From an uncultured virus (IMG/VR IMGVR_UViG_3300042564_002063) (Duplodnaviria; Heunggongvirae; Uroviricota; Caudoviricetes): 64,000 nucleotides of DNA. The stretch lies in the IMG/VR virus record IMGVR_UViG_3300042564_002063; one strand, given 5' to 3'. This document shows, piece after piece, positions 16,393-57,250 of this stretch (its first letter is position 1; every line of letters starts with the position of its first letter). Both the position numbers and the translations under genes were made by a program. Under the pieces are notes generated by a model. It did not search any database. It had not been told where the DNA came from and saw nothing but the letters and a program-made list of their open reading frames with translations.

Positions 16393-16468
16393 TTGAAGAG
16401 ATCTCAAATTATACCCGTTTGCAACCAGACATAAACCGCATCCACATTTCTGTGCCCGTAGATCTTTG

Positions 16469-16540: not shown

Positions 16541-16541
16541 A

Positions 16542-16632: not shown

Positions 16633-16654
16633 TGGTCTCCGCCAATCTATTTAA

Positions 16655-16828: not shown

Positions 16829-16857
16829 GACAAACCCCTTCCATATTTGGTATTTAT

Positions 16858-16887
16858 ATTATACTCTATACAGAAGGGGCAAGTCAA
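16858..16887 (-). promoter_or_regulatory. SigA-type promoter
   Basis: TTGACT-N18-TATAAT on the minus strand. Confidence 0.75.
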
Positions 16888-16890
16888 GTA

Positions 16891-17163
16891 CTACTTTGAG
16901 TTTTTGTCTACCTTTGAGAACGCCTCGTTGATTTCCTGCATGCTTAGGTTGCCGTCATCAAGGAAGGCACGAGCCAACCTTTCAACAACAGTTGCAACTC
17001 CAAGTATACCAGCCATCAAAACTGCTGACAATAGGTCAATGCCAACCACAGCACCAGCACCCAGAACACTGAGGCTTGATGCGGCAAACACTGCCACGAT
17101 ACGCAACAGAACATTCTTCATCGTGGCCCAACCGCCAGATACTCCTAGTTCCTTTTCTTCCAT
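16891..17163 (-). CDS. small two-TM membrane protein (holin-like)
   Basis: Two hydrophobic helices, ARAFLDDGNLS..EINEAF. Confidence 0.7.
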   Translation of the reverse strand: MEEKELGVSGGWATMKNVLLRIVAVFAASSLSVLGAGAVVGIDLLSAVLMAGILGVATVVERLARAFLDDGNLSMQEINEAFSKVDKNSK

Positions 17164-17184
17164 TTTTATCCTACCTTTCGACGA

Positions 17185-17370
17185 TTACTCGTCATCCTTT
17201 TCATAGCGTAGTGGGAATGTAATTACCCATACGCCTAGAGTAATCCAGATAAGCATTCCAACCACATCTTTGGCTGAGCCTTCTAGAACTACCCAAGCTA
17301 CAAACATACCAAGCAGGGTCCATGCCTGATCGATGATGTCTTTAAACAGTGCTTTGATAAATTTAATCAT
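17185..17370 (-). CDS. small two-TM membrane protein
   Basis: QAWTLLGMFVAWVVLEGSAK; coupled to the upstream surface-protein gene. Confidence 0.75.
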   Translation of the reverse strand: MIKFIKALFKDIIDQAWTLLGMFVAWVVLEGSAKDVVGMLIWITLGVWVITFPLRYEKDDE

Positions 17371-19592
17371 TATGGTCTCCTTGCTGCAGCTGCTGCTGCT
17401 GTTGTTGCGGCTGCTGTTGCTGTCATAGCAACCTGGGTTACGATGACGGCTGCAATAACAACCTTTTCTGATTGCTCACGGACCTGTGGAGACATATCTG
17501 CTCCAGCATTTCCTAGGGCATTAAATACTTCTACCGCTGCCCCTGCAACATTTCCAATCAGTGGAATTGCTGCTAATTCTTCGTCTAGTATGATGTCATC
17601 TGCCTGAGCTACAACTAGCAACGCATCTAGAGCTGCCTCATACTCAGGGGAGCCTTGCTCTGCATCAGCAAATACTTCCATGGCCGCAGCGACAATCAAT
17701 GTTTGCTGCTCTTCAGTTAATAGCTGAGGCTGAATCTCTGCAAGCTCTTCTACAAGCCCCTCAATGTTTTCAGCAGAAATTTCTTCCTTTATCTCAACCT
17801 CATTTTCTGGTACAATTGTTTCAGGTTTTTCTTCGATAGGGGGTTCAGGTGAAGGTGAAGGCTCTGGCGTTTCTGAAACTTCTGGCTCTGGTTCCTCTGT
17901 TACTTCTGGCTCAGGCTCTGATGTTGGCTCTGGTGTGGGCTCTGGCTCAGGTTCGGTGGTAGGAGATGGTTCAGGCGTTTCTGTTGGTTCTGGTTCCACT
18001 GGGTCTGTTGGGGTGGGCTCTGGAGTGGTGGTCGGTGAAGGCTCAGGTTCCGTGGGCGTTGGTTCTGTCGAAGGTTCTGGGGAAGGTTCTGGACTTGGTT
18101 GTACTGGCTGGGGCGGTGTGGGTTCTGACGTGGGTTCTGGTGTCGGGACTACTGGGATACTTATCGTAGACTCAGTGCTTGGAGTTATATAGCTTGTATC
18201 TACCTCAATATTTAATACAACAGACAATCTCTTGTATGTTCCACCACAAGGATCTCCAAACACCCCATTGTCTGCTGCAATAGTTAATGAGTTAGTTGTA
18301 GCTGCTGCTTGTACGATAATCAAAGAGTCTACGGCATGGCAATCACTATCTGCACCATAAGAAGCAGACTCAATTCTATCAATCTTATATCCCTCTGGTG
18401 CTACATAGCTTAGAACGTTGCCTTCATTAACAATAAGAACTATCCTGTTAGGATCTGATGGCACTACTGGAGATTCTGTAGGCTCTGGAGATACCGTTGG
18501 AGAAACGCTAGGCTCTGGCATAGGAGCTGAAACAAACAAGCTTTCTGGACTAGATGGCTGAGAGTAAACAGCTAGAGTATCATTGTCTGATCTAACAGTG
18601 AAAGAGTATGTGCTGTCAAGTCCTCCAGTCATGACAAACATCTCTCTTGACAGATAGATATTGGTTTCAGTAGACGCTACCCCCCAACCTCCGTTGCCGT
18701 TCTGCCAGGATACAGCATACCTTTCTACCTGAGCATTAGACTGCTGTGGGGCATCCCATAGTATTTCTACATTGCCCTCTGGAAGCTGCCTCACTCTAAC
18801 ATTGGTTGGAGAGTTTAGGAATGGAGGTTCTGGAGAAACGGTTGGCGACTGAGTAGGTTCTGGAGATACGGTGGCAGACTCAGTTGGCTCTGGAGATACG
18901 GTAGGTGATGCTGTAGGCTCTGGAACAAATGGAGACTCTGTTGTAGGAACTGGAGACAGGGTTGGTGACTCGCTTACTTGCTCAATTCCATATGTTTCAA
19001 AGCTAACTATAGATCCATCATTAAGCCTGACACCTGTTCTTGTTTGACCATCATATGTTGGACCATCTACGCTATATGCCATTGCTACAGTACCGTCAGA
19101 AAGAATAGCTGCAGTAATAACGATGTTGGTTGGAAGCTGTGCGTTCTGTTGCCAAATAGGTCTAGCAGATATGTCTACCTGGAAGCCACCATCAGATGAA
19201 TTGATAACTAAGTGCTCATCAGATCTGGCGTTTGGATACACTACCCAGTCCATAGAGTACAATGAGATGGATGGAGTAGATGGATAGGTCCAATATGTTC
19301 CATCTGGCCTACCAAAAGTAATCACAGAATTAGTTGTCACATAAATATTGCTGAAAACTCTTCCATCAAAAGTAACGTCAACGGATAGTGGGATTTGATA
19401 TGAAACATCGTCACCACCACAAGCATTGATTTCTGTTACAACTGGGCTAGATGTTTGTGCCTGTTGAGCAGCAGCGACAGCTGCCTCTTGACCTGGATTT
19501 ACACAGCTGGCTTTCGCCATATCGGATATGCCAAATACTGGTAGGAACGCTAAAATTAGAGCAGCTGCAGCTCTACCTACTTTATTATTAAT
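17370..19592 (-). CDS. large secreted/surface protein: signal peptide, NIDO-like region, FN3, SUEL-type lectin, Pro/Glu/Thr stalk, C-terminal hydrophobic anchor
   Basis: The frame stays open 24 codons above the track ATG and encodes a signal peptide from ATT 19592; FN3 PTNVRV..ILWDAP..YSFTVRS; lectin SASYG..C..N.VFGDPCGGTYKRL; PEPT repeats. Confidence 0.75.
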   Translation of the reverse strand: MNNKVGRAAAALILAFLPVFGISDMAKASCVNPGQEAAVAAAQQAQTSSPVVTEINACGGDDVSYQIPLSVDVTFDGRVFSNIYVTTNSVITFGRPDGTYWTYPSTPSISLYSMDWVVYPNARSDEHLVINSSDGGFQVDISARPIWQQNAQLPTNIVITAAILSDGTVAMAYSVDGPTYDGQTRTGVRLNDGSIVSFETYGIEQVSESPTLSPVPTTESPFVPEPTASPTVSPEPTESATVSPEPTQSPTVSPEPPFLNSPTNVRVRQLPEGNVEILWDAPQQSNAQVERYAVSWQNGNGGWGVASTETNIYLSREMFVMTGGLDSTYSFTVRSDNDTLAVYSQPSSPESLFVSAPMPEPSVSPTVSPEPTESPVVPSDPNRIVLIVNEGNVLSYVAPEGYKIDRIESASYGADSDCHAVDSLIIVQAAATTNSLTIAADNGVFGDPCGGTYKRLSVVLNIEVDTSYITPSTESTISIPVVPTPEPTSEPTPPQPVQPSPEPSPEPSTEPTPTEPEPSPTTTPEPTPTDPVEPEPTETPEPSPTTEPEPEPTPEPTSEPEPEVTEEPEPEVSETPEPSPSPEPPIEEKPETIVPENEVEIKEEISAENIEGLVEELAEIQPQLLTEEQQTLIVAAAMEVFADAEQGSPEYEAALDALLVVAQADDIILDEELAAIPLIGNVAGAAVEVFNALGNAGADMSPQVREQSEKVVIAAVIVTQVAMTATAAATTAAAAAARRP
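17830..18150 (-). repeat. PEP(T/S) low-complexity coding repeats
   Basis: Many ggctctgg/ggttctgg units encoding PEPT/PEPS. Confidence 0.85.
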
Positions 19593-19656
19593 TTTGCATC
19601 ACTCCTGTTGGGGTAGCTGGAATGTATTATGATACTATTATACTGGCTTATATAAG

Positions 19657-19690
19657 ATAAAAGGGGCATGGCCGTAGCCACACCCCTCAT
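19657..19690 (-). terminator. intrinsic terminator after nrdF
   Basis: GGGGTGTGGC-TACG-GCCATGCCCC then TTTTAT on the minus strand. Confidence 0.75.
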
Positions 19691-19704
19691 ACCAAGCTAA
19701 AGAA

Positions 19705-22755
<3,051 letters not shown>

Positions 22756-22763
<8 letters not shown>

Positions 22764-23148
22764 ACAGTATTTCTAACCTCTCTTTTACTTTTTGTACATC
22801 GTGTTCTGTGCCAAATATTTCTACCCTGGCAACAATGGGCACTCCAGTTTTAGCAGAGATCATATCTGCTGCTTTGCAAAAATGCTCTCCAAAATTTGTG
22901 TTGCCAAATCCAACAACCCCCTGGAGAAGGTCCCTGTTATTTGGAACATTTAAAAAAGCTCTCACCTGTTTAGGAATAGCAGACCTGTCAGAGCCACCGC
23001 CATAGGTTGGAACGAATAAGACAAATGGCCTGTCCATCTCTACGGTGCCTGATTGAATTTCAATCCTGGTAGCTGGCATTCCTAATTTTTCTACAAATCT
23101 CTTAGTGTTTCCAGAATGATTTGAAAAATAGACAATGTCTATGGACAT
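22756..23148 (-). CDS. nrdI: flavodoxin NrdI
   Basis: [28 protein letters not shown]. Confidence 0.95.
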
Positions 23149-45412: not shown

Positions 45413-46054
45413 TTAGACCTCTTCCAGCGTTACGCTTATATTCCAAAAGTCATAGTTAGAACCACCACGCCTTACAACAGAGTAGTTAAAGTCAGAAATA
45501 AACATTTCTATAAGCTGGTTATACTGTGGCAGCTTTTCATACGCTTCATCATTTTCACCAAAGGATGAGAACTTGTCATATGCTAGGTATACCCAGAATG
45601 ACCCCTTGTGGTTTTCATACCACTTTAAAATATCTACACCGCCAGCACCGCCATCAGTGGTGTACTCTAGTGTGTTATTATTTGCATATGGGGACTTTCC
45701 GTCCTCTAGGCTATAGTTTGGCCTAAGTGCGTATGACCTAGATGGAAGCATTTCCCACGAAGTAGATAGCGTCATCTTGTCTGCAATGTGGTATGAACGC
45801 ATTCTGCCGTTAGCCATTCTCTTTCTACTCTCTATTCTCTGAGGCTTAAAGTCTAATGGTGATCTATTGTCATCCGAAAGAATCATAAATTGATCAAGCA
45901 GTGTTTGGTCTTCTTCCCCGTCTGGATCTGCATTTACCTCAAGACCATTTGGAATGTATAGCCCATTGACAACCGTTCCAGAGTTGTCAGACCAAAGCAT
46001 GCCTTGCGGTCTTTGATACTTTTTGCGTCCTAGTAGGTATGCTTCACTAGTCAT
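45413..46054 (-). CDS. distal tail (Dit-like) protein
   Basis: Directly after the TMP; RMANGRMR...WNISVTLEEV. Confidence 0.65.
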   Translation of the reverse strand: MTSEAYLLGRKKYQRPQGMLWSDNSGTVVNGLYIPNGLEVNADPDGEEDQTLLDQFMILSDDNRSPLDFKPQRIESRKRMANGRMRSYHIADKMTLSTSWEMLPSRSYALRPNYSLEDGKSPYANNNTLEYTTDGGAGGVDILKWYENHKGSFWVYLAYDKFSSFGENDEAYEKLPQYNQLIEMFISDFNYSVVRRGGSNYDFWNISVTLEEV

Positions 46055-49000
46055 TAGAACTTATTTCCCCTAATTCTCTGAGAGTCAATGTGCTTAATCT
46101 GGTTCATAACTGCCCTGGCAATTTGGTCAGGATTTGAGTCAGTCTGAACATTAACGTTTACCTCATAATTATACATGGAATCGCCATTGTATGTTCCATT
46201 ATTTACAGCCTTTAGCTTATCTGCACCAAAGTTTTCAACACCATACTTGCTCATTACAAACTCTCCAGGTGTTAGCATAGCTGGGATAGTGTCTGACCCC
46301 TTTGATACAAACCTTGTAGCCATAAGCCCACCAGAACTAAATCCGATGGAGTCTGCAGGAAATGTCTTATAGTGATCTTTGTGAATTCCTTGTGGCGATT
46401 CCACCCTCAAGATATTGTCTAGAGCCTGCTTTACATTTCCGAATGCCCCACCTGGCTTGCTTGTACTCCAGGCTCCTGTTTTTCCATTAGAGTATACGAT
46501 GCTTCCTGGCTTTTTTCCATACTTCAAAACGTAACTTGCTCCAAACCTTTTAACGGAATAGACAGTAGAACCAACTGGCACCTTAAAGAAGCTGTTTGCT
46601 GGAACCTTAAGGGTCTGCGGAGAAGTTTCTGAAGATCCTGCTGTTAGGGCTGCAGCAATAATTGGGTTATTCTTTGTTTTTCCAAGAGAGTTCTTTAAGA
46701 TATCTTCTCTTTTTGCCTGTGCTGCTGCTGCTGCTGCATCTGCTCCAGAAGGCTGGAAGTTGTCTCTCTTAACTGCGTCCCCACCGTAAAGAGTTGCGTT
46801 TCTTGCGGCATCTGCACCAGAAGTTGGAAAGTTCATTGATGATGCAGCTAAAATTCCAGCTAGAGTTGTTGTGTCTACTCCGCTAGGGACATTGACATTC
46901 TTTGTGGTGTCGGGGACTGAGTCTTCGTCTTGGCCATCTCCGTTGTCGCTGTCACTTCCACCACCAGAGCTTGGACCACCAGTAGCTACTGCAACTGGCT
47001 TTTGGTTAAACTTGGCATTTGTGGCAGCGTTCTGCTCATTGGTGAATAGCGTCTGAACATTAGACTGCCTATCTGATGGCTTAGTGTTGTAATAATCTTC
47101 TATGTCCTTTACGACTGTCAATCCGCCATTGATAGCTTTTGTATATTCTTCGCTGCTAGTTCTCGCTAGCTCAATTCCGTTAGAAATTTGATCCCACTCT
47201 AGCCTTGTCTTGCCAGCAACCTTTAGGTCTTGCTTTGCTAAACTAGCAGCAGCTTCTGCCTTTCTGATGTTTTCCTGTGCTGGCTCAAGACGGCTTTCCT
47301 CAATTTCAAAAATCTTTTTCTGATTTACAAGGATCTTGTCATCAAGCTGTTGCCTTGTCATACCAGACTTGGACAGGAGTGCATCTGTCTGAAGCTTTTG
47401 TGCCCTCTCTAGAGCATCCCTCTGAGAGCTAAGTGCGTCACGAGCTGACTGATCTCTCATCTCTTGTGCTGCTCTAGCAGCTGCTGCAATGTCACCTCGT
47501 GAAAGAGCATCTGCAAGACCTAGCTGCTTTTGTTGCTGAGCAGTGATTCTTTGGTTTACCTCTTCGATTCTGTCTAGAGCCTCATACTTCTTTTCATAGG
47601 ACTTGCTAATTTCCTCTTCTTTCCAAGCAATTTCCTGAAGTCCTGCTTGATAGTCATCAATCTGATACTGCAGTAATGCAATATCATTCTGAGCAACTTC
47701 AGCAATTTTTCTATCCCCTACAATAGACAGCTCTGCTTTAATGTCAATAGCTCGCTCTTCAGCAGCAAACTTATCCATGGCCTTGTTTAGACCGTCAGTA
47801 AATAGGCCTTCTTTAAATTCAAGGCTATTTACAACCTGCTCAAGTCTAGTTTTAAATTCTTGCGGAAGCGTATTAATCTCTCCAGCCAAGTACTGTCCAT
47901 AAATTTCACGAAGGTTGCTGTCTTCTAGGATGGCCTGCTGCTGTGCGAAGTCAAACTTAGTAGCACCTTGTGCAAATCTTTCAGTTACTCTTAGATCCCT
48001 ATTTTCATTTGTAACGTCTTCCCTTAGTGTTCTTACGGCTTCGAACTGGCGAAGTGCTTTTTCTGCTCGCTTAGCCTCTTCAGTTATCTTCTTTAGCTCT
48101 TCGTTACTCAAATCCTTGGTAGCTACAGCTGCTGCAAATGCAGTATCCTCTACTGCTGCATAGGCTTCACTTACAGACATTCCAGAGGCTACTAGTCTCT
48201 GAAGTGCTACGTTTTGGTTATTGACATCTACTGTGACTCTTGCCATTCCATTTTGGAATTCACCAAGTGCAATTTCATTAAAGGCTTTTTTAGTTGCTGT
48301 ACCCTGGTCAGTAAGAGTGATTGCACCTGTCTTCTTGTTTGTCTTAAAGAATTTCTTTTGGTCAGCCTCGTCTAGCCCCATCAGGTAATCTACAAACTCA
48401 GAGCTTCCGCCCTTTTGTGTTAGAAGCTGCTCCATTCCAGTGAATCTAGTAATGTCCTTATTTCCACCAAGAAGTCTCATAAGCTCTTTCTTTCCGCCCT
48501 TGGCATTAATTCTAGAGTCTCTAATTTCTTTTAGTCTTGATAGTGGATCATCAAGTGGCTCATTTCTGCCTCCGCCACCGCCACCGCCACCACCGCCTGG
48601 AGTCTTTGGTGCTGCTGCTGCTGAGCCCTGGGTTGCCTTAAAAGCTTCATGAGCTCTATAGTATCCAACCTTTACAGAGTCAGACATGCCTGCATACTGC
48701 TTGCCACCGTACTTATATCCGTCAATAGTTACGTCTTCTGTTAGCCACTTCTGGTAGTCTTCTGATGCAATAATATCAGCTTCTGGGACATACAGCTGTG
48801 AGACTAGAGTCTTTGTATATACAACCTTATCATCTTCAGACAGAGTATTGAAGTATGCCTCATCCTCTTTACTGATCTTACCCTTTAGCTCAGGTGCGAT
48901 TTCAAGAACAGCCTTTATTGTCTTTGGCTTCTTTTCATTGATTGTATCCATTAACTTATTAAACTTATTATATGCAGCTGAATTTGCTAGGTAGAAGTCT

Positions 49001-52000
49001 ACGGCTACCTTAGCTGGAATTACCTGGCCAAGCCTGGTTAATTCAGAAATGTTATTTAGAAGATCCTGGGCATCTCCGTCAGACTCCTGTGCATCTACCT
49101 CTAGCGTTAGCTTTCTTGCCAGATCCTTGTCTCCTAGCATAGCTCCTAGCTCTGCAGTTCTTCCTGCTACGTCTCCAGAAAACTTTGTAATGATGTTTAG
49201 TACTGCTGCCTGCGACTTTGCATCTCCCATTGCCATATCCATCAGCTTACGCATAGTCGCTGGAGGAATTTCTCCAGAAGACATCTTGAGTTCAATTAGG
49301 TATTGCTGGTCTTCTCCAAGCTTAAGCTGATCTGCCTGAGCACGTACAACATCAACATATGCTAACTGATCTGCATCATCCTTGTACTTTGCATCAGTTG
49401 CCTTTACAGCACCGCTCATTAGTGATTCTTGAAGTGCTGGGCTTTCATTAAATCCATTTAGGATTTCCTGATTCATAGCTGCCATCTGGTCTGTAAGAAT
49501 CTTACGCTCATCCATATATCTAGTTTGCATGGCGTTAGCTTCGTTAATTTTTCCCTGTATCTTTAGCTCTTTAATTTTCTTTTCATAGAACATATCCATA
49601 GAGTCTAGAAGTTCTTTATTTTGCTCTAATGCTATCTTTGCATCTACCGCTACTGCAGCACCAAGCTTTCCATAGTTTGCTACACCCTCTTCATATGCTG
49701 CAAAGCCAGCAATTGCACCACCAATAGTTCCAATGATTCCACCAATTGCAGCTCCAAGCGGGGCAGCTACACCAGCAGTTAGAGCTCCTGCAATAAGGGC
49801 ACCGATTCCTGCACCAGCGGCACCAGCACCCAAAGCAGTTCCTATAACTCCAGTATTTCTATCTACAGATGAACCACTTGCAGAACCAAAGTACCCTGGT
49901 CCTACGTTTGCATTAGCAGTAGCCAAGCTTTGTGTCATTGCATCTTGGTTTGCCTGCAAAGCATTAATTCTAACCTGGAGTGGATCTTTCAAAAGATCTG
50001 TTCCGTTTGGACCTAGTAGCTCTTCCATATTTGCAATTACGTCAATTGCAATAGAGGCATCTCCAGATTCTTTTGCAAGATTACCTGCCATTGATGTGGC
50101 TTGCGAAAAAGTCATTGCATTAGATAGGACTGCAGATGTTAGCTGAGATGTAAGATCCTTGACGCTACCCTCTCTATCTCCAGAGGCAAGCTGTTTGGCT
50201 AATGCCTCTGTCTGCTTCTTACCAGCCTCAGTCTGAACGAATGCTTCTCCATAAGTTGTCTTACCAGCTACAGCACCTAGCTCACGGTCTCTTTCTGCAC
50301 GTCTTCTGTCCATTGCTTCAGATGCAGTAACGTTACCGCCAAACTCAGCAATAGTCTGCATAGCCTCACGGCTGGCCTTCATGGTTTCTGAGTACTCTAG
50401 AACCTTTTTCTGTGCGTCATCGAACTTTGCATTTAGAAGCATAATGCTTCCAATAACAGCACCAACTGCTACAGCTATTGCTCCAGCGAAAGACCCCATA
50501 AGTGGAATTGCTATTGAGGCAACCATTAGAGCTGGCATTAAGTCATTTGCCATCTTAGCCATTGGGCTATCGCTCATACCGACCATCATGGCACCCATCA
50601 TGGCAGCTCCTGCTGCACCACCAGCTGCTCCAGTTGTCCTGCCCATGGCATTGCCATAACGCTGCCTTAGCGTTTGCTTAGGTATTGGCTTTCCGTCTTT
50701 GTCTACATCTTGATTTGCTGCATTTCTGCCATATGCTGCTGGAGCTAAGAATTGTTGCTTTGCTTCTGCAGTGGCAGGTCTTGCCTTTCCCTTTTCGTCA
50801 AACGTGAATACCTTGTTTCCACTACCAGAAGGAACCATATAAGATGTTCCAGGAACCCTTGCGTTTTTAATATTTGTGTTACGCTCATTATCCCGCACCA
50901 TCTCATCTTTATTTGCGTAAACCTTTCCGCTGTTATTATCTCTAACGCTACCATTGGCAAGGTCTGTATAAGTGTTAAGTGGTGCTGCAGTGTGTGGCAA
51001 CAACAACTGTCCCCTAGTTGCAACATCTAAAGCAGCCTTCTTGGCTACTGATACAAAACCAGTTCCAAGGTTCTTTGCACCTTCTGCAACAGTCTTAGGA
51101 GAAAAAGCACGAAGACCAAATCTCTTTCCAGACTTGTCTATTTGATCATCAGTTGGCAAGAAAGGTGATTTTCCTGGTCTTGCCCCCACAGTACCTTGAG
51201 AATTTCCAAGTGGATCTAGCGGTAGCGGTCTTCCGCTAGTGTCAAATCCTGGTATCTTAGGAACATTGCTATCAAAGTAGCCTGGGATCTTTCCATGTAC
51301 CATTTGCTGAATTAGTGGTGCATACTTTTCAGATTGCTTTGCAGGAATTACAGCTTCTCCTGGTGACAGCATAGCGGGAACTACGTCGCCAGCTCCCTTT
51401 GGTCCTGGAACAGATACTACACCATTTGCATATCTCTTACCCAATAGCTGTGCCATGCTGATAGCTGCCTGCTGCCTTGAAGCTCTCCCTGGCTTTGGAG
51501 AAGGTTTTTCTGACTTAGCAGGCTTTGGAGAGACAGGTTTTCCTATTTTTGGAGCTACTTGTTTGGCAGCATGTCTCTCCATAACTTCTTCATGCTTTCT
51601 TCTTGCCTGGGCATTTACCTGGCTGAGGTATTTTTCATCGGCGGCATCTCTAGGGCTTATCCTCATGGAGGCTAGTCTGCCTAGGTATGAGTTTCCTGGT
51701 GACTTCTTGTATTCTACCAAACGCTCGTCTATGAACTCAGATAGCATACCTGCTTCTTTAGTGGCAACCATAGCTCTTGTAGAGCCTGCATTTGCAGTAT
51801 AGAAGTCTTTAGAAATTCTTCCTAAAAGCTTATAGGCTTCTATGGTTGTTGGGTGTGCTCCGCCCTTAAGTCTATTAAACTCTCTTCTTGCTACAGCACT
51901 ATCGATGCCCAAAGATTTTGCAATTTTGTCAATATTCTTTTCAGAGTCATTCATCAAAACCTTAAAGGATGATGTCTTTGACATATCATCAAGAGCCTTA

Positions 52001-55000
52001 TTAACCATTGCATGATCAGCCTGAAGGTTCTGGTATATCCAATTCTTTTTCTGAAATGTCTTTCCGAATGCCTGCCTGCTTTCGTAATCCTTTTCGATAT
52101 GCGACAGGTGAGCACCACGTAAGCTGCCCAATACCTTTTCGTCTAATCCATACTTAGCTCCAAGCTTTGTTACGAATTCATTCTCTCTTATAAGTATTTC
52201 ATTTATTGGTAACTGAGTTTTTGGGTCGATCTTATTATAATAATCTACTCTAGACTGAAACTCTTTTGCTAATGGAGCGGGGGCACTTCTTAGCACCTTT
52301 GTTAGCTGCTTAAAAGCTTTTGATTGTGTTGGTGCACCAGTAGTTCCATCTTCAAATCTTGTGCCAAACATATTTGCCAAAATCTTTACAACTGTAGGTG
52401 CGTTTTGTGGGGTAACACGAATTCTGAGTCCAGCCTTGTTAACAACTTTCTGGAGAGCTCTTGCAGTTGATCTATCCTTAGTTATAATCTTAGAGATTTC
52501 TTTAACGCTAAATCCACCAGGAGTGTATGTCTCTACATATGGTGGCTTAGGGTTAGAGGTATAACTGTTTGGACCAGTCTTATTGCTTCCGAATGGACTA
52601 CTTAGTCTGTAAAACTTTGCATCATTCTCAAAATTACCTTTTCCACCTCGCATAGATACTGGAGACAGCCTGAAGCCAGGATATTCACCCATTTTATTAA
52701 AGTCCATCAAAGCATCTGTTACAGCTGCGGAAGATCTTCTGGCAACACTTCTCTTGGTTACTAGATCAATGTCTCCATACCTTTCTAGAGTGTCTGACTT
52801 AAAGTTTGGGGTAGGGCCAAACATTCCAGTCTTTGGATCTTTATATCCATATTGCTTTCCACGATCACCAATAGGGAAATCTGTGGTTACAGCGTTATAC
52901 TGCTTGCCCTTAAATCCAAATAGCTTATTTATTAATGCCTGAACAGGAGAAGTTCTTGCATAGCCATATGTTGGTCTGGCAGAACCTGGAGTGTCTGGAC
53001 CAAGACCAAACACTTTTTGCTCCATTCTCTTACGAAGGAATTCTTGTGCTATGTTTTTATTTTTAGCAATGTCAAGGAAGTCTGCACCAGTGCCAGTTTC
53101 GAATGCACTCTTGTATCTTCCGCCCTTGCCAGCCTGTAGCATAGCTTCTAGATCTGTTTTCTTGGTTCTAACGGCTACACGAGAACGTCCCAACATTGAT
53201 GCAAACGGGTTACGCCCAATAGAGTATCCAGGAATGCTATCAGTCATCATTCCCTGAATGATGCCAGCATACTTCTTGCTTTGCTTGGCTGGAATTACAG
53301 CTTCTCCAGGAGAAAGCATTGCTGGGACTATATCTCCAGCACCCTTTGGACCTGGAACTGATAAAATTCCAGAGTTAAGCTTCATTGGCTTTTGTCCAGC
53401 AGGATTCTTTGGTCCTATAGGTACGTTAAGAAGTCTGGATTGTGCTACTACAGCCCTAGCATATGCGGAAGCTAGCTTGTCTACAGATGCTGCCTCAACA
53501 TTGAACGTCTGGATAAGCTTGGCGTGTGTCTGGTCAAGTGATGCTGCTACAGCTGATGCCTCTAGCTGTTGCTGGGTCATGTACTCTGTAGATGTGGCTA
53601 GATCCTTTGAAGATGTTCCTGCCCCCTGGAACACCTTTGATATAAAACCAAACATCTTAATAAGGTTTGCAACACCGTTAGCTATCAAACCAAAAGTCAT
53701 GAGGAGGACTGGACCAATACCAGCAAAAATTGTAGTAAGGACTACAATAAAGTTTTTTGCCCCATCGCTCATGTTGTTAAATCTATCTAGTAAATTCTTG
53801 GCAAACTCAACTACTGGGGTAATTGCCTTTAGGAATGCCTCTCCCAACGGAACCAAAGAAACCTTAAGGTCTTCGACTGCCTTCTTGAACTTGTACATTG
53901 GAGAATCTTCAACACGCTTCATTTCTCGTTCAGAAAGGATGGCTAATTCTTCTGCAGTCTGTTGCGAAATCTTTGCAACTCTCTGTGCCTGGGTTCCTTC
54001 CTTAATGACGTTCTGGAATAGTGTAGATAGACGTGCGAACTGGAACTTTCCGAATAGCTGCTCAATTGCACGGGCACGATTTAATGGGTCTAGAGTATCT
54101 AGTGCACTAGCAAAGTCGATGACCAGTCCTCTAACATCACCTTTATTAGCATCTACAATACCTTTAAGATTGATTCCCATCTGTAGCAAGAATTCGTTTG
54201 CTTTTCCAGATGGGTTAATTAGAGATGCTAGACCAGACTTGAGTGCGTTAGCACCCTCAGAGGCATTAATTCCACCTTCCTTCATGGCAGTCATGAAGAA
54301 TGCTAGATCTTCCATGTCTCCACCAAGCTGCTTGATTACTGGAGCAGCCTTTGGAATAGCAATTGTCAGGTCTTCAATGGCAGTGACTGTTTGGTTTTCA
54401 ACTGCGTTTAGAAAGTCAATTTCGCCAGCCAGGTCTTTGGCAGAGGTTCCAAATGCATTCATTAGGGAGATAGTAGTGTCCAATGCCTGCTGCTGCTCTA
54501 CCCCACCAAGAACAGATAGCCTGGTAGCTTGATTAATTTGAGCAAGAAGATCTGCATTTGTTAGACCCATTGCTGCTGCGGATGCAGCCATCTCCATGGT
54601 CTTTTCTACAGCAACACCATACTTTGTAAATTCAGAGGCAAGCTTCTGAACCTGCTTAATCATCTTGTCTGTTTCTTCTGTAGCAGTAAACGTATCTCCA
54701 TAGACACGCTTAAACTTGATTGCCTGCTCTTCCATTTGCATAAAGGTCTTTGCTGCAACTGACCCCAGCATAGCAAGCGGAATTGTAAAACCAACCATGA
54801 GCTGACGACCAGCCCACTGGGTATTCTTACCAAAGTTTAGAAGATTTGTGGATCCCTGCTTCAGTAGCTGATTAAATAGCTGTTGCTTTTGAGCAGCAAT
54901 TGCTGTTTTTGTAGCTAGGTTATCCATGTCTAAAGCTAAAGGCCGAACAGAAATGGCCTTCATAGCACCACTACCGTCACGGCCTAGCTTTATAAACTGT

Positions 55001-55380
55001 GTTTGAAGAGTCTTAACTCTCTCTGTTGCAACCTTTTCTATTGTAGCGAATTCGCTCTTAAAGAATCTACCAAAACTTTTGGTGGCTGCACCAGCATATC
55101 TGAAAGTCTCACCAAACCCTAGCTTATTTCTCTCTAGGGCTGTGGTGAAAGACTCTGCAGTTGTAGAAATGGTCCTAACATTTGCTGCAAACTTACCAGT
55201 TGCATTGATGTTATTAATCAGGTTGCGTTGGATGTTTTGGGCAGCTTTTGCCTGCTGGGTACCACTCTGAAGGAGCTGAGCATTTAGCTGAGATATTTGC
55301 CTTTGTAGGTTTTTAATTTCTGCAATACCCACAGACGTATCGACATTAATTATAATGTCGGATCTGATATCATCAGCCAT
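46054..55380 (-). CDS. tape measure protein (3108 aa) with inserted domains
   Basis: Follows tail chaperones; TP901-type TMP core, TM segments, coiled coils, C-terminal DTIPAMLTPGEFV. Confidence 0.93.
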   Translation of the reverse strand: MADDIRSDIIINVDTSVGIAEIKNLQRQISQLNAQLLQSGTQQAKAAQNIQRNLINNINATGKFAANVRTISTTAESFTTALERNKLGFGETFRYAGAATKSFGRFFKSEFATIEKVATERVKTLQTQFIKLGRDGSGAMKAISVRPLALDMDNLATKTAIAAQKQQLFNQLLKQGSTNLLNFGKNTQWAGRQLMVGFTIPLAMLGSVAAKTFMQMEEQAIKFKRVYGDTFTATEETDKMIKQVQKLASEFTKYGVAVEKTMEMAASAAAMGLTNADLLAQINQATRLSVLGGVEQQQALDTTISLMNAFGTSAKDLAGEIDFLNAVENQTVTAIEDLTIAIPKAAPVIKQLGGDMEDLAFFMTAMKEGGINASEGANALKSGLASLINPSGKANEFLLQMGINLKGIVDANKGDVRGLVIDFASALDTLDPLNRARAIEQLFGKFQFARLSTLFQNVIKEGTQAQRVAKISQQTAEELAILSEREMKRVEDSPMYKFKKAVEDLKVSLVPLGEAFLKAITPVVEFAKNLLDRFNNMSDGAKNFIVVLTTIFAGIGPVLLMTFGLIANGVANLIKMFGFISKVFQGAGTSSKDLATSTEYMTQQQLEASAVAASLDQTHAKLIQTFNVEAASVDKLASAYARAVVAQSRLLNVPIGPKNPAGQKPMKLNSGILSVPGPKGAGDIVPAMLSPGEAVIPAKQSKKYAGIIQGMMTDSIPGYSIGRNPFASMLGRSRVAVRTKKTDLEAMLQAGKGGRYKSAFETGTGADFLDIAKNKNIAQEFLRKRMEQKVFGLGPDTPGSARPTYGYARTSPVQALINKLFGFKGKQYNAVTTDFPIGDRGKQYGYKDPKTGMFGPTPNFKSDTLERYGDIDLVTKRSVARRSSAAVTDALMDFNKMGEYPGFRLSPVSMRGGKGNFENDAKFYRLSSPFGSNKTGPNSYTSNPKPPYVETYTPGGFSVKEISKIITKDRSTARALQKVVNKAGLRIRVTPQNAPTVVKILANMFGTRFEDGTTGAPTQSKAFKQLTKVLRSAPAPLAKEFQSRVDYYNKIDPKTQLPINEILIRENEFVTKLGAKYGLDEKVLGSLRGAHLSHIEKDYESRQAFGKTFQKKNWIYQNLQADHAMVNKALDDMSKTSSFKVLMNDSEKNIDKIAKSLGIDSAVARREFNRLKGGAHPTTIEAYKLLGRISKDFYTANAGSTRAMVATKEAGMLSEFIDERLVEYKKSPGNSYLGRLASMRISPRDAADEKYLSQVNAQARRKHEEVMERHAAKQVAPKIGKPVSPKPAKSEKPSPKPGRASRQQAAISMAQLLGKRYANGVVSVPGPKGAGDVVPAMLSPGEAVIPAKQSEKYAPLIQQMVHGKIPGYFDSNVPKIPGFDTSGRPLPLDPLGNSQGTVGARPGKSPFLPTDDQIDKSGKRFGLRAFSPKTVAEGAKNLGTGFVSVAKKAALDVATRGQLLLPHTAAPLNTYTDLANGSVRDNNSGKVYANKDEMVRDNERNTNIKNARVPGTSYMVPSGSGNKVFTFDEKGKARPATAEAKQQFLAPAAYGRNAANQDVDKDGKPIPKQTLRQRYGNAMGRTTGAAGGAAGAAMMGAMMVGMSDSPMAKMANDLMPALMVASIAIPLMGSFAGAIAVAVGAVIGSIMLLNAKFDDAQKKVLEYSETMKASREAMQTIAEFGGNVTASEAMDRRRAERDRELGAVAGKTTYGEAFVQTEAGKKQTEALAKQLASGDREGSVKDLTSQLTSAVLSNAMTFSQATSMAGNLAKESGDASIAIDVIANMEELLGPNGTDLLKDPLQVRINALQANQDAMTQSLATANANVGPGYFGSASGSSVDRNTGVIGTALGAGAAGAGIGALIAGALTAGVAAPLGAAIGGIIGTIGGAIAGFAAYEEGVANYGKLGAAVAVDAKIALEQNKELLDSMDMFYEKKIKELKIQGKINEANAMQTRYMDERKILTDQMAAMNQEILNGFNESPALQESLMSGAVKATDAKYKDDADQLAYVDVVRAQADQLKLGEDQQYLIELKMSSGEIPPATMRKLMDMAMGDAKSQAAVLNIITKFSGDVAGRTAELGAMLGDKDLARKLTLEVDAQESDGDAQDLLNNISELTRLGQVIPAKVAVDFYLANSAAYNKFNKLMDTINEKKPKTIKAVLEIAPELKGKISKEDEAYFNTLSEDDKVVYTKTLVSQLYVPEADIIASEDYQKWLTEDVTIDGYKYGGKQYAGMSDSVKVGYYRAHEAFKATQGSAAAAPKTPGGGGGGGGGGRNEPLDDPLSRLKEIRDSRINAKGGKKELMRLLGGNKDITRFTGMEQLLTQKGGSSEFVDYLMGLDEADQKKFFKTNKKTGAITLTDQGTATKKAFNEIALGEFQNGMARVTVDVNNQNVALQRLVASGMSVSEAYAAVEDTAFAAAVATKDLSNEELKKITEEAKRAEKALRQFEAVRTLREDVTNENRDLRVTERFAQGATKFDFAQQQAILEDSNLREIYGQYLAGEINTLPQEFKTRLEQVVNSLEFKEGLFTDGLNKAMDKFAAEERAIDIKAELSIVGDRKIAEVAQNDIALLQYQIDDYQAGLQEIAWKEEEISKSYEKKYEALDRIEEVNQRITAQQQKQLGLADALSRGDIAAAARAAQEMRDQSARDALSSQRDALERAQKLQTDALLSKSGMTRQQLDDKILVNQKKIFEIEESRLEPAQENIRKAEAAASLAKQDLKVAGKTRLEWDQISNGIELARTSSEEYTKAINGGLTVVKDIEDYYNTKPSDRQSNVQTLFTNEQNAATNAKFNQKPVAVATGGPSSGGGSDSDNGDGQDEDSVPDTTKNVNVPSGVDTTTLAGILAASSMNFPTSGADAARNATLYGGDAVKRDNFQPSGADAAAAAAQAKREDILKNSLGKTKNNPIIAAALTAGSSETSPQTLKVPANSFFKVPVGSTVYSVKRFGASYVLKYGKKPGSIVYSNGKTGAWSTSKPGGAFGNVKQALDNILRVESPQGIHKDHYKTFPADSIGFSSGGLMATRFVSKGSDTIPAMLTPGEFVMSKYGVENFGADKLKAVNNGTYNGDSMYNYEVNVNVQTDSNPDQIARAVMNQIKHIDSQRIRGNKF

Positions 55381-55421: not shown

Positions 55422-55733
55422 TTATCGAGCTGGTCCGCCGAATAGCGAACTATTTCCCGATGCCTCTTCAACAATCTTGTAGACTGTTGGTAGGTCAAGC
55501 AGGTCTTCCAGGACAGAGATATCCTCTGCCAACTCTGGCTTAAACTGCTTCATAGCAATCTGGACACACTCAAGCAAAAGGTTCATCGACTTGTCGTTGT
55601 CTTCTGCTACTTCCTGAATTGCCTGGAACTTTGCCAAAAACGGCCTAAGAAGAGAAATCTTCAAAGGACGGATTTCGATTTTTTGACCATCTAGTAGTGT
55701 AACTACCTTGTCTTCATTTACTGTAACTGCCAT
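55422..55733 (-). CDS. tail assembly chaperone (G-like)
   Basis: Directly before the TMP; paralogous to the N-half of 55796..56479. Confidence 0.75.
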   Translation of the reverse strand: MAVTVNEDKVVTLLDGQKIEIRPLKISLLRPFLAKFQAIQEVAEDNDKSMNLLLECVQIAMKQFKPELAEDISVLEDLLDLPTVYKIVEEASGNSSLFGGPAR

Positions 55734-55795
55734 TGTTTTTTGGTTTCCTTTCCCATATTGGGGCTTAACCATTATAGCACAGAGATACCTTATTT

Positions 55796-56479
55796 TTACT
55801 CAACTTTTTCGTAGCTTAGCCCCATGCCAATTCCAAAACCAGCCTTTTGGGCATTAGCACCCTGCAGGGCAACCACATCGTTAGAATCCTTTGCCTGACC
55901 GCCACTAAACACTCTGGCCTTCATCTCTTCCCAGGCATTAGCTTTATCTCTTCCAGACTCCTTGTCAAGATCAACGCCTTGGATGGCTGCATGAAACTTT
56001 TTATTGTCATAATCCATCTCTCGTTTTACTTCAAGAGCAGCCATGAGCTCTGGCATTGATAGACTTATTTCGAGCTCTTCGTAGTCTCTCCAAATACCCA
56101 GCAAGAATAGTTCCGACTCTAGCTTGGCTAGATCTAGCTTTTCCCACTCCGATCCACTTTCCACAGCATCCTTCTTTACGTCAGGGCTGTCCTTCTTTAC
56201 TTTTACTCCTGCAGCAACATCTATGATTTCGTAAATTGTTTTTAAATCTACCATATCTTCTAGATCAAATATTGTTTGAATCGATGGGTGGTATTGCTGC
56301 ATTGCAATCCTTGCACATTCTGATAAAAAGAATATTGCCTCTTCGTCATTCTTTGCAGTCTTGACAAACTCAAAGGCATCCATAAACTCTCTTAAATACT
56401 TTATCTTAAGTGGAGTAAGGTACACCAAAGTACCGTCTATAAGCCTTATAGTTTTTGAATCATATACCCTGGTAGCCAT
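55796..56479 (-). CDS. tail assembly chaperone (G+T-like single ORF)
   Basis: After the major tail gene; G-like N-half and C-half with ELEISLSMPEL. Confidence 0.75.
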   Translation of the reverse strand: MATRVYDSKTIRLIDGTLVYLTPLKIKYLREFMDAFEFVKTAKNDEEAIFFLSECARIAMQQYHPSIQTIFDLEDMVDLKTIYEIIDVAAGVKVKKDSPDVKKDAVESGSEWEKLDLAKLESELFLLGIWRDYEELEISLSMPELMAALEVKREMDYDNKKFHAAIQGVDLDKESGRDKANAWEEMKARVFSGGQAKDSNDVVALQGANAQKAGFGIGMGLSYEKVE

Positions 56480-56549: not shown

Positions 56550-57176
56550 TTAGGACTCTGGAGTCACTGTGCGGTCTACGATCTTACCGTAAGAAGCACT
56601 GTCGTTTGGAAGCAAGCGGAAGCTTACCTCAAACATTGTTGCCTCGTCACGCTTTGCAGATACTGTAACGCTCTCGATAGAGAGGGCACGGTATGCAACG
56701 TAGATACGCTCTAGCTCAGAACCAATAGCACAGTCACCTGTACCAGGACCAACTGCAACTAGACCACGCTCAACTGGGCACTCACCGATGTCACCTGCGG
56801 ACAGGTTCATGGTTGGGTTACCAGCTACTGTGGATAGGTCAGCGTCCTTACCAGCTAGCGAGAACAGCAAGTTCTCTAGGGTTGACTCAGCAAAAGCAGT
56901 ATTCAGGTTAACCTGCATACCCTGCTTGTAAAGCTTAGCCACGTCTAGAACCTGGTCAACCTGTACTTCACCGAAGTCAGGCTGGAACTGGATCTCTAGA
57001 CCGTTCATTGTGTAACCAACGTTACGGAAGCTAACGTCGTCAGATAGAGTTTCCACATATCTTTCGCCACTTACGTACGCTGGCAAATCAGCGTCGGTAA
57101 GGTTACCGTCTTCGAAAGTGAAGAGAGCTGCTGCACCAACAATAATGTTGGAGCTTGAACCACGTGTATATGCCAT
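56550..57176 (-). CDS. major tail tube protein
   Basis: NIIVGAA, VGYT..G, VDQ, position in module, followed by a terminator. Confidence 0.85.
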   Translation of the reverse strand: MAYTRGSSSNIIVGAAALFTFEDGNLTDADLPAYVSGERYVETLSDDVSFRNVGYTMNGLEIQFQPDFGEVQVDQVLDVAKLYKQGMQVNLNTAFAESTLENLLFSLAGKDADLSTVAGNPTMNLSAGDIGECPVERGLVAVGPGTGDCAIGSELERIYVAYRALSIESVTVSAKRDEATMFEVSFRLLPNDSASYGKIVDRTVTPES

Positions 57177-57250
57177 AATTTTCACCTCTTTTTTTAGTTT
57201 TATGGATTAAAAAAAGGCGTTTGTTTCCTCATGCCAATTATAGCACGGTT

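What the first reader, a model, noticed from the sequence alone, without database searches (positions are those of the whole stretch)
46245..53385. Tape measure protein as a cassette-bearing polyprotein: enzyme-like cargo between repeated PAMLSPGE modules
Seen: the module G..SVPGPKGAGD[IV]VPAMLSPGEAVIPAKQS.KYA..IQ.M....IPGY occurs twice internally (about 53225-53385 and 51277-51436; shared DNA ggaattacagcttctcc), with a third diverged copy near the C-terminus (about 46245-46345). Between the internal copies lie about 600 aa of basic, non-coiled-coil sequence forming two globular units. Junctions carry a similar short motif: KLNSG, GYSIG, RFEDG, RYANG, GYFDS, GFSSG. Known: TMPs are ejected into the cell, are often proteolytically processed and can carry enzymatic domains. 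Inference: an effector-delivery system in which swappable cargo is inserted by recombination between the repeats and released at [FY]xxG sites on maturation or injection.
Basis: partly seen in the sequence, partly recalled or inferred. Interest (0 to 1): 0.85.

Follow-up and report, generated by a model that had tools for sequence, protein, structure and literature searches.

The report
Mosaic tape measure protein carrying ADP-ribosyltransferase
The tail "ruler" protein of an uncultured freshwater phage is strung together from exchangeable blocks separated by a small repeated hook element, and one block has the fold of an ADP-ribosylating enzyme that the tail probably carries into the host cell.

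Summary
ORF 46054-55380 (-) is a real 3,108-aa TP901-type tape measure protein (TMP). A ~50-aa module occurs three times: aa 669-722, 1318-1368 and 3015-3071. Copies 1 and 2 are 76% identical (E 2e-23).

The module matches the JBD30 gp46 segment (1020-1057) that its authors predict to be a "hook". It also matches two internal repeats in mycobacteriophage Douge gp16.

Of 145 complete relatives, 57 carry 2 copies, 71 carry 3, 16 carry 4 and 1 carries 5. The blocks between copies recombine in many combinations, and collinearity with this protein breaks at the module edges.

Nothing here shows cleavage, catalysis or delivery.

TMP-borne enzymes are already known (T5 pb2, P23-45). Earlier reports of this scan describe hook-delimited giant TMPs on other DNA. 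The SopF/DarT-like domain inside a TMP appears new: a new variant of a known kind.

The parts
46054..55380 (-). Tape measure protein gene, 3,108 aa
   Evidence: One open frame. PF10145 at aa 246-444, TIGR01760 at aa 203-557, PHROG TMP families. An identical ORF is on an independent IMG/VR contig, L001.
53389..55380 (-). Highly conserved N-terminal part (aa 1-664), including the TP901 core and a hydrophobic hairpin at aa 541-577 (window 53650-53760)
   Evidence: BLAST hits in 193 of 197 distinct family sequences. Many invariant columns. Hydrophobic segments.
53215..53388 (-). Hook module copy 1 (aa 665-722)
   Evidence: The module profile matches JBD30 gp46 1020-1057 and Douge gp16 967-1014 and 1413-1462.
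52366..53214 (-). Block A (aa 723-1005): ADP-ribosyltransferase-fold domain, net charge +25
52345..52359 (-). Orphan module edge RFEDG (aa 1008-1012) at the A/B junction
   Evidence: In P0015 the same place is followed directly by hook copy 2. Similarity to P0005 and P0009 breaks here, and to P0007 about 40 residues later (aa 1054). 69 of 184 collinear alignments end at aa 975-1049.
51556..52323 (-). Block B (aa ~1020-1275): folded alpha/beta domain seen only in TMPs, with a helix-turn-helix-like stretch near aa 1150-1172
   Evidence: AF2 is confident over model residues 17-270. No fold match; the only hit is another uncultured-phage TMP. 16 sequence relatives among 1.84 billion representatives, all 1,504-2,962 aa. 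Weak CasR/Csa3 hits, E 0.01-0.03.
51427..51555 (-). Lys/Pro-rich linker (aa 1276-1318), predicted disordered
   Evidence: pLDDT below 50; composition.
51271..51426 (-). Hook module copy 2 (aa 1319-1370)
   Evidence: Predicted short beta-hairpin plus helix at low confidence.
50626..51270 (-). Variable Gly/Pro/Asn-rich stretch after copy 2 (aa 1371-1585)
   Evidence: BLAST hits in only 9 of 197 family sequences.
49693..50544 (-). Two hydrophobic, glycine-zipper-like segments (aa 1613-1654 and 1845-1896) with a conserved stretch between them
   Evidence: Gly-zipper Pfam hits at the equivalent place in relatives. aa 1651-1840 hits 170 of 197 sequences.
47131..49680 (-). Long conserved, mostly A/L/E/K/Q-rich segment (aa 1901-2750), taken to be the helical ruler
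   Evidence: Composition; 177 of 197 sequences hit. Helicity is inferred, not predicted here.
46339..47130 (-). Hypervariable stretch before copy 3 (aa 2751-3014)
   Evidence: Hits in 6 of 197 sequences. Relatives carry LysM or CW_7 here. No Pfam hit in the window copy.
46168..46338 (-). Hook module copy 3 (aa 3015-3071), canonical C-terminal type
46057..46167 (-). Conserved C-terminal tail (aa 3072-3108), taken to be the trimeric plug helix that sits in the baseplate hub
   Evidence: Conserved in 178 of 197 sequences together with copy 3. The role is inferred from JBD30, T5 and Douge structures.

Best explanation
This is a genuine giant TP901-type tape measure protein of an uncultured phage of roughly 110 kb. 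It is built as a string of blocks separated by a small conserved hook module (a short beta-hairpin plus helix or helices).

Order of parts:
- conserved N-terminal core with a membrane hairpin
- hook 1
- block A, an ADP-ribosyltransferase-fold domain related to SopF/DarT
- block B, a TMP-only folded domain with a possible DNA-binding motif
- a disordered linker
- hook 2
- a variable stretch
- two glycine-zipper membrane segments
- a long ruler
- a hypervariable stretch
- hook 3
- the terminal plug helix

Proposed mechanism (inferred). A TMP trimer fills the tail lumen, with its C-terminus plugged in the hub. On infection it is expelled C-terminus first. The hydrophobic segments build the channel, and the hooks catch on the opened hub or tube as the T5 pb2* C-terminus does. 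The N-terminal third, including the transferase, leaves last, just ahead of the DNA. It refolds in the host and ADP-ribosylates a host target. Its strong positive charge and DarT/Tpt1-like fold make a nucleic acid a candidate target.

Across the family, blocks are gained, lost and exchanged at the hook edges.

Shown here: the repeats, their homology to the JBD30 and Douge TMPs, the variable copy number and block content, the break points at the hook edges, the transferase fold, and its conserved candidate catalytic residues.

Inferred: docking, delivery, catalysis, the target, and any cleavage.
For: Gene and repeats.
-.

Hook homology.
- The module profile hits Douge gp16 twice (E 2.8e-25 for the whole protein) and JBD30 gp46 1020-1057 (E 1e-5) among 177,635 PDB sequences.
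- The JBD30 paper (PMC11445458, section 16 read in full) predicts residues 1022-1066 as a hook of two helices and a beta-hairpin. It likens this to the T5 hook.
- The T5 paper (PMC10038345, passages) shows pb2 cleaved after R1127. The C-terminal 42-43 residues of pb2* are anchored between hub subunits, and the peptidase fragment is expelled.

Family variation.
- 145 complete TMPs carry 2, 3, 4 or 5 modules: 57, 71, 16 and 1 respectively.
- The 232 pieces between hook 1 and the conserved middle fall into 29 clusters used in many combinations. Examples: c0 alone 35, c0-M-c1 32, c2-M-c3 16, c2 with six other partners, and c3 and c8 either alone or after another block plus a hook.

Break points.
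- P0005 is 82% identical over aa 4-1014, then 30%.
- P0009 is 70% identical over aa 1-1013, then hook 2 follows directly.
- P0011 is 64% identical through aa 1368, then 28%.
- Of 184 collinear alignments, 71 end at aa 675-749, 69 at 975-1049 and 11 at 1350-1399.

Transferase.
-.
- Two family members give PF12294 (DUF3626) at 25.6 and 26.6 bits against a cut-off of 27. SopF carries DUF3626 (PMC6682159, passages).
- R738 ends predicted strand 1, Y805/G806 lie in a strand followed by a helix, and E950 opens a strand after a conserved loop. R738, G806 and E950 are invariant and Y805 nearly so in 26 sequences of 43-80% identity.

Other cargo in relatives.
- HAD phosphatase before hook 2 in L039, L051 and L059.

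Precedent for a TMP-borne enzyme acting in the host.
- P23-45 (PMC10770324, abstract in the listing only).
Against: - No experiment or dataset here shows catalysis, delivery, docking or cleavage.
- The window's own block A has no Pfam hit even at E 10. A profile of nine copies finds no PDB sequence at E 10.
- Foldseek TM-scores are low (0.32-0.54). So the assignment rests on the fold ranking and on VIA-align Z, not on sequence.
- Candidate catalytic residues were placed from predicted strands, not from a residue-level superposition.
- The hook is predicted at low confidence as a monomer (pLDDT 33-57).
- A trimer of folded 30-kDa domains would not fit a tail lumen, so the blocks must travel unfolded or extended. 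That is assumed, not shown.
- Alignment end points can also reflect uneven divergence rather than recombination.
- The samples of relatives are biased. P0002-P0121 were found with aa 640-1400 as the query. L007-L086 are the best 80 of at least 590 matches.
Confidence: 0.7

Rival explanations
1. Polyprotein reading. The hooks or their [FY]xxG edges are processing sites. The TMP is cut there during tail maturation or injection, freeing block A and block B as separate effectors.
For: - T5 pb2 is cut after R1127, directly after its hook. The freed C-terminal peptidase stays in the tail and is expelled first (PMC10038345, passages).
- The JBD30 authors speculate on a cut at residue 1066, right after the segment homologous to this module.
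- Block A begins within two residues of the end of hook 1, and block B is joined to hook 2 by a disordered Lys/Pro-rich linker.
Against: - No cleavage data exist for this family.
- The motifs are conserved module columns, not independent signals.
- The T5 hook is not detectably related in sequence: the module profile listed no T5 chain at E up to 1.
- The JBD30 cut is a prediction from a peptide-cutter program.
- The P23-45 abstract calls the RNA polymerase TMP-fused, so an enzyme may act without release (abstract only).
Confidence: 0.25
2. Structural reading. The blocks between hooks are not enzymes in action. They are spacers or envelope-spanning parts of the ejected conduit. The transferase fold is a relic kept for shape or for binding (for example to DNA ends or to NAD-like ligands).
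For: - Block B has no enzyme fold.
- Block A has no stand-alone relatives of 157-501 aa in 5.8 billion clusters, so it has evolved only inside TMPs.
- The total length between hook 1 and the conserved middle is fairly constant (median 822 aa, quartiles 744-896) whatever blocks fill it. That fits a length or geometry constraint.
Against: - The Arg, Tyr and Glu candidates and about 20 further residues are invariant or nearly so across 26 sequences down to 43% identity.
- Relatives fill the same zone with a HAD phosphatase that passes Pfam's cut-off (52-55 bits against 27), which points to enzymatic cargo.
- Block A is present in only 9 of 70 TMPs picked without regard to it, so it is not needed to build the tail.
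Confidence: 0.2
3. Artefact reading. The giant ORF is an assembly chimera or a run-together of several genes, and the repeats are chance or low-complexity matches.
For: None found, beyond the unusual length.
Against: - The identical 3,108-aa ORF is present on a separate IMG/VR contig (L001) and in record G001.
- A 98%-identical 3,062-aa protein and 1,356 relatives (mostly 2,600-3,700 aa among the 120 listed) were found.
- The repeat E-value is 2e-23.
Confidence: 0.01

Closest known systems
Pseudomonas phage JBD30 gp46 TMP 'hook' (residues 1022-1066), and T5 pb2 (hook 1085-1127, cut after R1127, released peptidase pb2C)
   Same: The module here is homologous in sequence to JBD30 gp46 1020-1057. 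Copy 3 sits, as in JBD30, just before the terminal helix. In T5 a hydrophobic hairpin is followed by the hook and then by an enzymatic part that is expelled. The order here (hairpin aa 541-577, hook 1, transferase) is alike.
   Different: JBD30 and T5 have one hook; this protein has three and its relatives have 2-5. No sequence relation to the T5 hook was found. The part after hook 1 is 2,390 aa long, not 92 aa. The enzyme is a transferase, not a cell-wall peptidase. Anchoring and cleavage are shown only for T5.
Mycobacteriophage Douge gp16 TMP (PDB 8ZDO/8ZDQ)
   Same: It carries two internal copies of the same module (967-1014 and 1413-1462), about 400 aa apart.
   Different: The passages of the Douge paper that I read (12 of 25 places) model only residues 1658-1699 and do not mention the repeats. 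Douge gp16 is 1,699 aa. What lies between its copies was not examined here.
Thermus phage P23-45 TMP with an N-terminal virion RNA polymerase (PMC10770324)
   Same: A giant TMP whose N-terminal part is an enzyme that works inside the host after ejection (abstract). Block A also lies in the N-terminal third.
   Different: A different enzyme. No relation to the hook modules was tested. Only the abstract in the search listing was seen.
SopF (Salmonella effector, DUF3626) and DarT (DNA ADP-ribosyltransferase toxin)
   Different: Block A is embedded in a phage structural protein. It has no ARF-binding or antitoxin partner that I could see, and no macrodomain gene in the window. It is not recognised by PF12294 in the window copy or by PADLOC models.
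T4 Alt, an ADP-ribosyltransferase packed in the head and injected with the DNA (recalled; cited in PMC7824862, passages)
   Same: A phage transferase delivered ready-made at infection.
   Different: Alt is a separate head protein, not part of the tail ruler. No comparison was run here.

Membership tests
TP901-type tail tape measure protein | Match to the family's core domain models above their cut-offs | tested here: met
   PF10145 at 91.7 bits (cut-off 33.2). TIGR01760 at 111.8 bits (cut-off 28.8). Eleven PHROG TMP families.
TP901-type tail tape measure protein | Position in the tail gene order, after the tail tube and chaperone genes and before the distal tail genes | tested here: met
   Upstream: an Ig-domain protein (56550-57185) and two ORFs sharing phrog_10504 (55422-56479). 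Downstream: a 213-aa ORF and a 1,458-aa minor tail protein (phrog_10359).. The tube and chaperone roles are inferred from position.
JBD30-type TMP hook module | Sequence homology to the JBD30 gp46 hook segment | tested here: met
   Profile of 20 copies against PDB: gp46 1020-1057, E 1e-5; Douge gp16 twice, E 2.8e-25. Copy 3 alone against PDB: Douge only, E 0.28. Copy 1 alone: nothing relevant.
JBD30-type TMP hook module | Fold of a short beta-hairpin plus helices | tested here: inconclusive
   Model of copy 2: strands 319-321 and 329-331, helix 343-358, at pLDDT 39-52. Model of copy 1: two short helices, no strands, at pLDDT 33-57.
JBD30-type TMP hook module | Anchors the TMP inside the opened baseplate | not testable with these tools
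Anchoring is shown only for T5 and is speculative for JBD30.
ADP-ribosyltransferase superfamily (SopF/DUF3626 and DarT branch) | ART core fold | tested here: met
ADP-ribosyltransferase superfamily (SopF/DUF3626 and DarT branch) | Match to the family's sequence model (PF12294) | tested here: inconclusive
   Window copy: no hit at E up to 10. L010 and L022 homologues: 25.6 and 26.6 bits, just under the 27-bit cut-off.
ADP-ribosyltransferase superfamily (SopF/DUF3626 and DarT branch) | NAD-binding and catalytic residues (Arg or His on strand 1, Tyr or Ser-Thr-Ser on strand 2, catalytic Glu after the ARTT loop; the pattern is recalled) | tested here: inconclusive
   R738, Y805/G806 and E950 sit at the expected places in the predicted strands and are invariant or nearly so. 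No residue-level superposition could be made.
ADP-ribosyltransferase superfamily (SopF/DUF3626 and DarT branch) | NAD+-dependent transfer activity | not testable with these tools
   Needs a bench assay.
Processed TMP (T5 pb2 / lambda gpH type) | Proteolytic cut next to the hook | not testable with these tools
   No proteomic data. The lambda-type C-terminal model TIGR01541, named in earlier notes of this scan, did not match this protein or its three modules at E up to 1.

The most novel reading that the evidence does not exclude
The hook is a universal joint of tape measure proteins. It lets phages assemble, by exchange at the joint, a programmable train of ready-made effectors that ride inside the tail. 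In this lineage the train includes a DarT/SopF-like ADP-ribosyltransferase that enters the cytoplasm immediately ahead of the genome. There it modifies host DNA, RNA or a defence or transcription protein, as the very first act of infection. Successive hooks dock one after another in the opened hub, so that the blocks are released or exposed in a fixed order.
Probability: 0.2. Interest if true: 0.85.

Novelty: new variant of a known kind. Interest (0 to 1): 0.66.

Why it matters
Tape measure proteins are usually treated as rulers and channel formers. A few are known to carry a cell-wall enzyme or, in one case, an RNA polymerase.

Three results here widen that picture:
- A very large uncultured family builds its ruler from exchangeable blocks fenced by one small conserved element. 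The family has at least 1,356 proteins and at least 590 IMG/VR stretches.
- That same element recurs in two to six copies in the 120 best-scoring of 7,596 other matching proteins of 115-2,000 aa, many of them TMP-annotated.
- One block has the fold of an ADP-ribosylating toxin or effector.

If the transferase is active and delivered, it would be a tail-borne counterpart of T4 Alt. It would also give a direct handle on what a phage does to its host before any gene is expressed.

The hook-bounded layout also offers a natural scaffold for asking how proteins are carried through a 4-nm tail lumen.

Tried and rejected
- Phage GenBank records. There is no near-DNA match except a 44-53-nt stretch in Streptomyces phage TMP genes. 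There is no tblastn match for aa 640-1400. A first try had the wrong frame.
- Lambda gpH lead from earlier notes. TIGR01541 gave no hit, and no lambda chain was listed by the module profile at E up to 1.
- Pfam on the 20 module copies: nothing at E up to 10.
- Block A. There was no PDB sequence hit with a 9-row profile, no PADLOC hit and no stand-alone relatives of 157-501 aa.
- Stretch before copy 3: the ESM Atlas gave no usable hit.
- A scan for more block-A loci with alignment A3 mostly returned hook-only matches.
- Host. The 13 MAG contigs carrying relatives are binned under mixed taxa. Six are Bacteroidota, which is no more than a hint. The window's own assembly is not held.
The alignments used for folding hold whole stored proteins instead.
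- Gene conversion between copies is rejected. Within-genome identity of the 87-nt core (0.78) is no higher than between genomes (0.80).
- Literature searches for this layout found no paper describing repeated hooks as block borders or a transferase in a TMP. I saw only the listings, plus passages of PMC7824862.

Full report
**The gene.** The finding lies inside one open reading frame, window 46054-55380 on the minus strand, 3,108 aa.
- It matches PF10145 at aa 246-444 (91.7 bits) and TIGR01760 at aa 203-557. It also matches eleven PHROG tape-measure families through its first ~700 residues.
- Its neighbours are those of a siphovirus tail module. Upstream are portal, protease and major head protein genes, an Ig-domain protein, and two small ORFs that share phrog_10504. 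Downstream are a 213-aa ORF and a 1,458-aa minor tail protein.
- The rest of the window carries replication and nucleotide-metabolism genes.
- The identical ORF stands on a separate IMG/VR contig (L001) and in the nearest held virus record (G001, 57 kb, CheckV completeness 52%). The gene is real, and the genome is probably about 110 kb.

**The repeats.**
- Residues 670-719 and 1319-1368 are 76% identical (E 2.4e-23). The C-terminal copy is weak by BLAST.
- A profile of 20 copies finds all three clearly: 669-722, 1318-1368 and 3015-3071, at 64-76 bits.
- At the DNA level copies 1 and 2 are only 64% identical over 183 nt. Of 39 codons for identical residues, 19 are the same codon.
- Across 21 first and 12 second copies from related loci, the 87-nt core is 78-82% identical whether compared within or between genomes.
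- So the copies are old and held by selection on the protein. They are not recent duplicates and they are not homogenised.

**What the module is.**
- No Pfam or NCBIfam model covers it.
- Against PDB sequences the profile hits two tape measure proteins. One is mycobacteriophage Douge gp16, with two internal copies at 967-1014 and 1413-1462 (E 2.8e-25). The other is Pseudomonas phage JBD30 gp46 at 1020-1057 (E 1e-5).
[quoted passage not shown] Its authors speculate that the hook anchors the protein in the baseplate after a cut at residue 1066, by analogy with T5.
- The T5 paper (PMC10038345, passages) shows three things. pb2 is cut after R1127. The last 42-43 residues of the remaining pb2* wedge between hub subunits after opening. 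The freed C-terminal peptidase fragment is expelled.
- My monomer models give the module low confidence, with a hairpin plus helix for copy 2.
- The passages of the Douge paper that I saw (12 of 25 places) model only the last 42 residues and do not mention the repeats.
- The module is very common. With the profile, 7,596 of the 8,000 scored candidates of 115-2,000 aa reach E 1e-5. The 120 best, which favour multi-copy proteins, carry 2 (60), 3 (56), 4 (3) or 6 (1) copies. Many also hold lysozyme, transglycosylase, amidase, NlpC/P60, M23, CHAP or LysM domains.

**The family.**
- Residues 640-1400 find 1,356 proteins at E 0.001, mostly 2,600-3,700 aa among the 120 listed, on contigs up to about 125 kb.
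- Among 145 complete proteins, 57 carry two modules, 71 three, 16 four and one five. The first copy is always at about aa 665-690 and the last is near the C-terminus.
- BLAST of this protein's segments against 197 distinct sequences gives these hit counts:

| Segment | Sequences hit (of 197) |
|---|---|
| N-terminal part | 193 |
| Block A | 131 |
| Block B | 26 |
| Stretch after copy 2 | 9 |
| Middle, aa 1651-1840 | 170 |
| Middle, aa 1901-2750 | 177 |
| Stretch before copy 3 | 6 |
| C-terminal end | 178 |

- These counts are inflated for block A, because 117 of the 197 sequences were found with a query that contained it.
- Among 70 TMPs picked by N-terminal patterns alone, 9 have block A.

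**Shuffling at the module.**
- I cut the zone between copy 1 and the conserved middle at each internal module. This gave 232 pieces from 147 proteins, which form 29 clusters.
- The clusters occur in many combinations. c0 occurs alone (35) or before a module and c1 (32). c2 pairs with c3 (16) or with c11, c12, c15, c24 or c28, and once with c13 ahead of c3. c7 pairs with c12, c8 or c21. c3 and c8 occur alone or after another block plus a module.
- Close relatives show sharp steps in similarity. P0005 is 82% identical to this protein over aa 4-1014 and 30% afterwards. P0007 is 76% identical to aa 1054, then 35%. P0009 is 70% identical to aa 1013, and then its copy 2 follows at once. P0011 is 64% identical through aa 1368, then 28%.
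- In P0015, block A ends ...ANMFGTRFADG and runs straight into VVSVPG of copy 2. Here the same place reads ...ANMFGTRFEDG, then block B, then ...KRYANG-VVSVPG. So block B sits between two copies of the module's N-terminal edge.
- Of 184 alignments that start at the N-terminus, 71 end at aa 675-749, 69 at 975-1049, 13 at 1175-1224 and 11 at 1350-1399.
- This is what exchange at the module edges would leave. Uneven divergence could contribute, and I ran no formal recombination test.

**Block A.**
- I folded aa 665-1008 with an alignment of 26 rows. Mean pLDDT is 75 and pTM 0.71. The domain from model residue 60 to 340 is mostly at 79-95, and the hook is below 57.
- Foldseek against the PDB gives five matches at E 0.001 or better, all ADP-ribosyltransferases. 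They are SopF (9.9e-7 and 3.3e-6) and DarT (3.2e-4 to 6.3e-4), though TM-scores are low.
- Two family members give PF12294 (DUF3626) at 25.6 and 26.6 bits against a cut-off of 27. SopF carries that domain (PMC6682159, passages).
- The window copy itself has no Pfam hit.
- R738 ends the first predicted strand. R802-P-T-Y-G806 leads into a strand followed by a helix. E950 opens a strand after the conserved loop N943..Y948. R738, R802, G806 and E950 are invariant in the 26 rows; P803, T804, Y805, N943 and Y948 are nearly so.
- This fits the usual order of NAD-binding and catalytic residues in this superfamily (recalled). I could not superpose residues.
- The block is strongly basic, net +25.
- It has no stand-alone relatives of 157-501 aa.

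**Block B and the rest.**
- I folded aa 1005-1375. Residues 17-270 form a confident alpha/beta domain. The Lys/Pro-rich linker and copy 2 are at low confidence.
- No fold match stands out. The only viral match is another uncultured-phage TMP.
- Against 1.84 billion representatives there are 16 relatives, all long proteins. In eight of them the block sits directly after a detected copy 1, with no block A.
- A helix-turn-helix-like stretch gives weak CasR/Csa3 hits, which is a lead only.
- In relatives the same zone holds a HAD phosphatase in L039, L051 and L059. The stretch before the last hook holds LysM in L055 or CW_7 in L059.

**How it most likely works.**
- By analogy with T5, JBD30 and Douge, a TMP trimer fills the tail with its C-terminal helix plugged into the hub. 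It leaves C-terminus first.
- The order hydrophobic hairpin (aa 541-577), then hook 1, then enzyme mirrors T5's hairpin, hook and expelled enzyme. Here, however, 2,390 residues follow the first hook.
- The N-terminal third leaves last, next to the DNA. That is also where P23-45 carries its virion RNA polymerase (abstract only).
- I therefore read block A as a delivered ADP-ribosyltransferase, and the hooks as docking joints that double as exchange points.
- Docking, delivery, activity and target are inferred. Cleavage is possible (about one in four) but nothing here shows it.

**Novelty.**
- TMP-borne enzymes and a C-terminal hook are in print.
- My four literature searches found no paper on repeated hooks as block borders or on a transferase inside a TMP. 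I saw the listings, and passages of one paper.
- Earlier reports of this scan describe the same hook-bounded layout in giant TMPs of other genomes, some with phosphatase blocks, so the layout is not unique to this window.
- Their lambda gpH link was not reproduced for this module.
- I could not see the supplements of the JBD30 and Douge papers. They may say more about the module.

Noticed in passing
window 55422-56479 (-): Two adjacent ORFs directly upstream of the TMP (227 aa and 116 aa) both match phrog_10504. The longer one also matches phrog_10474. They may be a chaperone pair or a duplicated gene rather than the usual frameshifted G/GT pair.
   Followed up: no
window 54779-54831: A 44-53-nt stretch inside the TMP core (about aa 184-201, around NTQWAGRQLMVGF) is 91-98% identical in DNA to the TMP genes of 29 Streptomyces phage records. 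The genomes are otherwise unrelated and differ widely in G+C.
   Followed up: no
L039 aa 1342-1481, L051 aa 1346-1469, L059 aa 1014-1152 of their TMPs: Relatives carry a HAD-superfamily phosphatase (PF03767, up to 55 bits; PNKP-phosphatase-like) in the block before hook 2. This is the zone that holds blocks A and B in the window protein.
   Followed up: partly
L055 TMP aa 2752-2802; L059 TMP aa 2875-2907: LysM and CW_7 peptidoglycan-binding domains sit just before the C-terminal hook, in the stretch that is hypervariable in the window protein.
   Followed up: no
P0140 aa 1268-1468: A 1,803-aa TMP from another family has four hook copies back to back with no block between them, and six copies in all.
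   Followed up: no
window 51880-51960 (TMP aa ~1140-1172): Block B holds a helix-turn-helix-like stretch (IDKIAKSLGIDSAVARREFNRL) with weak CasR/Csa3 profile hits, E 0.01-0.03.
   Followed up: partly
window 1-20000 and 19705-23148: Accessory genes of the phage: ThyX, a 2OG-Fe(II) oxygenase, two glycosyltransferase-like genes, Hsp20, a staphylococcal-nuclease homologue, an APS-kinase-like P-loop protein, an M23 peptidase, class I ribonucleotide reductase and a flavodoxin. No macrodomain or other ADP-ribose-removing gene was seen in the window.
   Followed up: no
L158-L170: Relatives of this phage are binned into MAGs named for very different taxa (Bifidobacterium, Acidimicrobiaceae, Methylococcus, Aquiluna and six Bacteroidota). 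This probably reflects binning of phage contigs by coverage. It gives only a weak hint of a Bacteroidota host.
   Followed up: no
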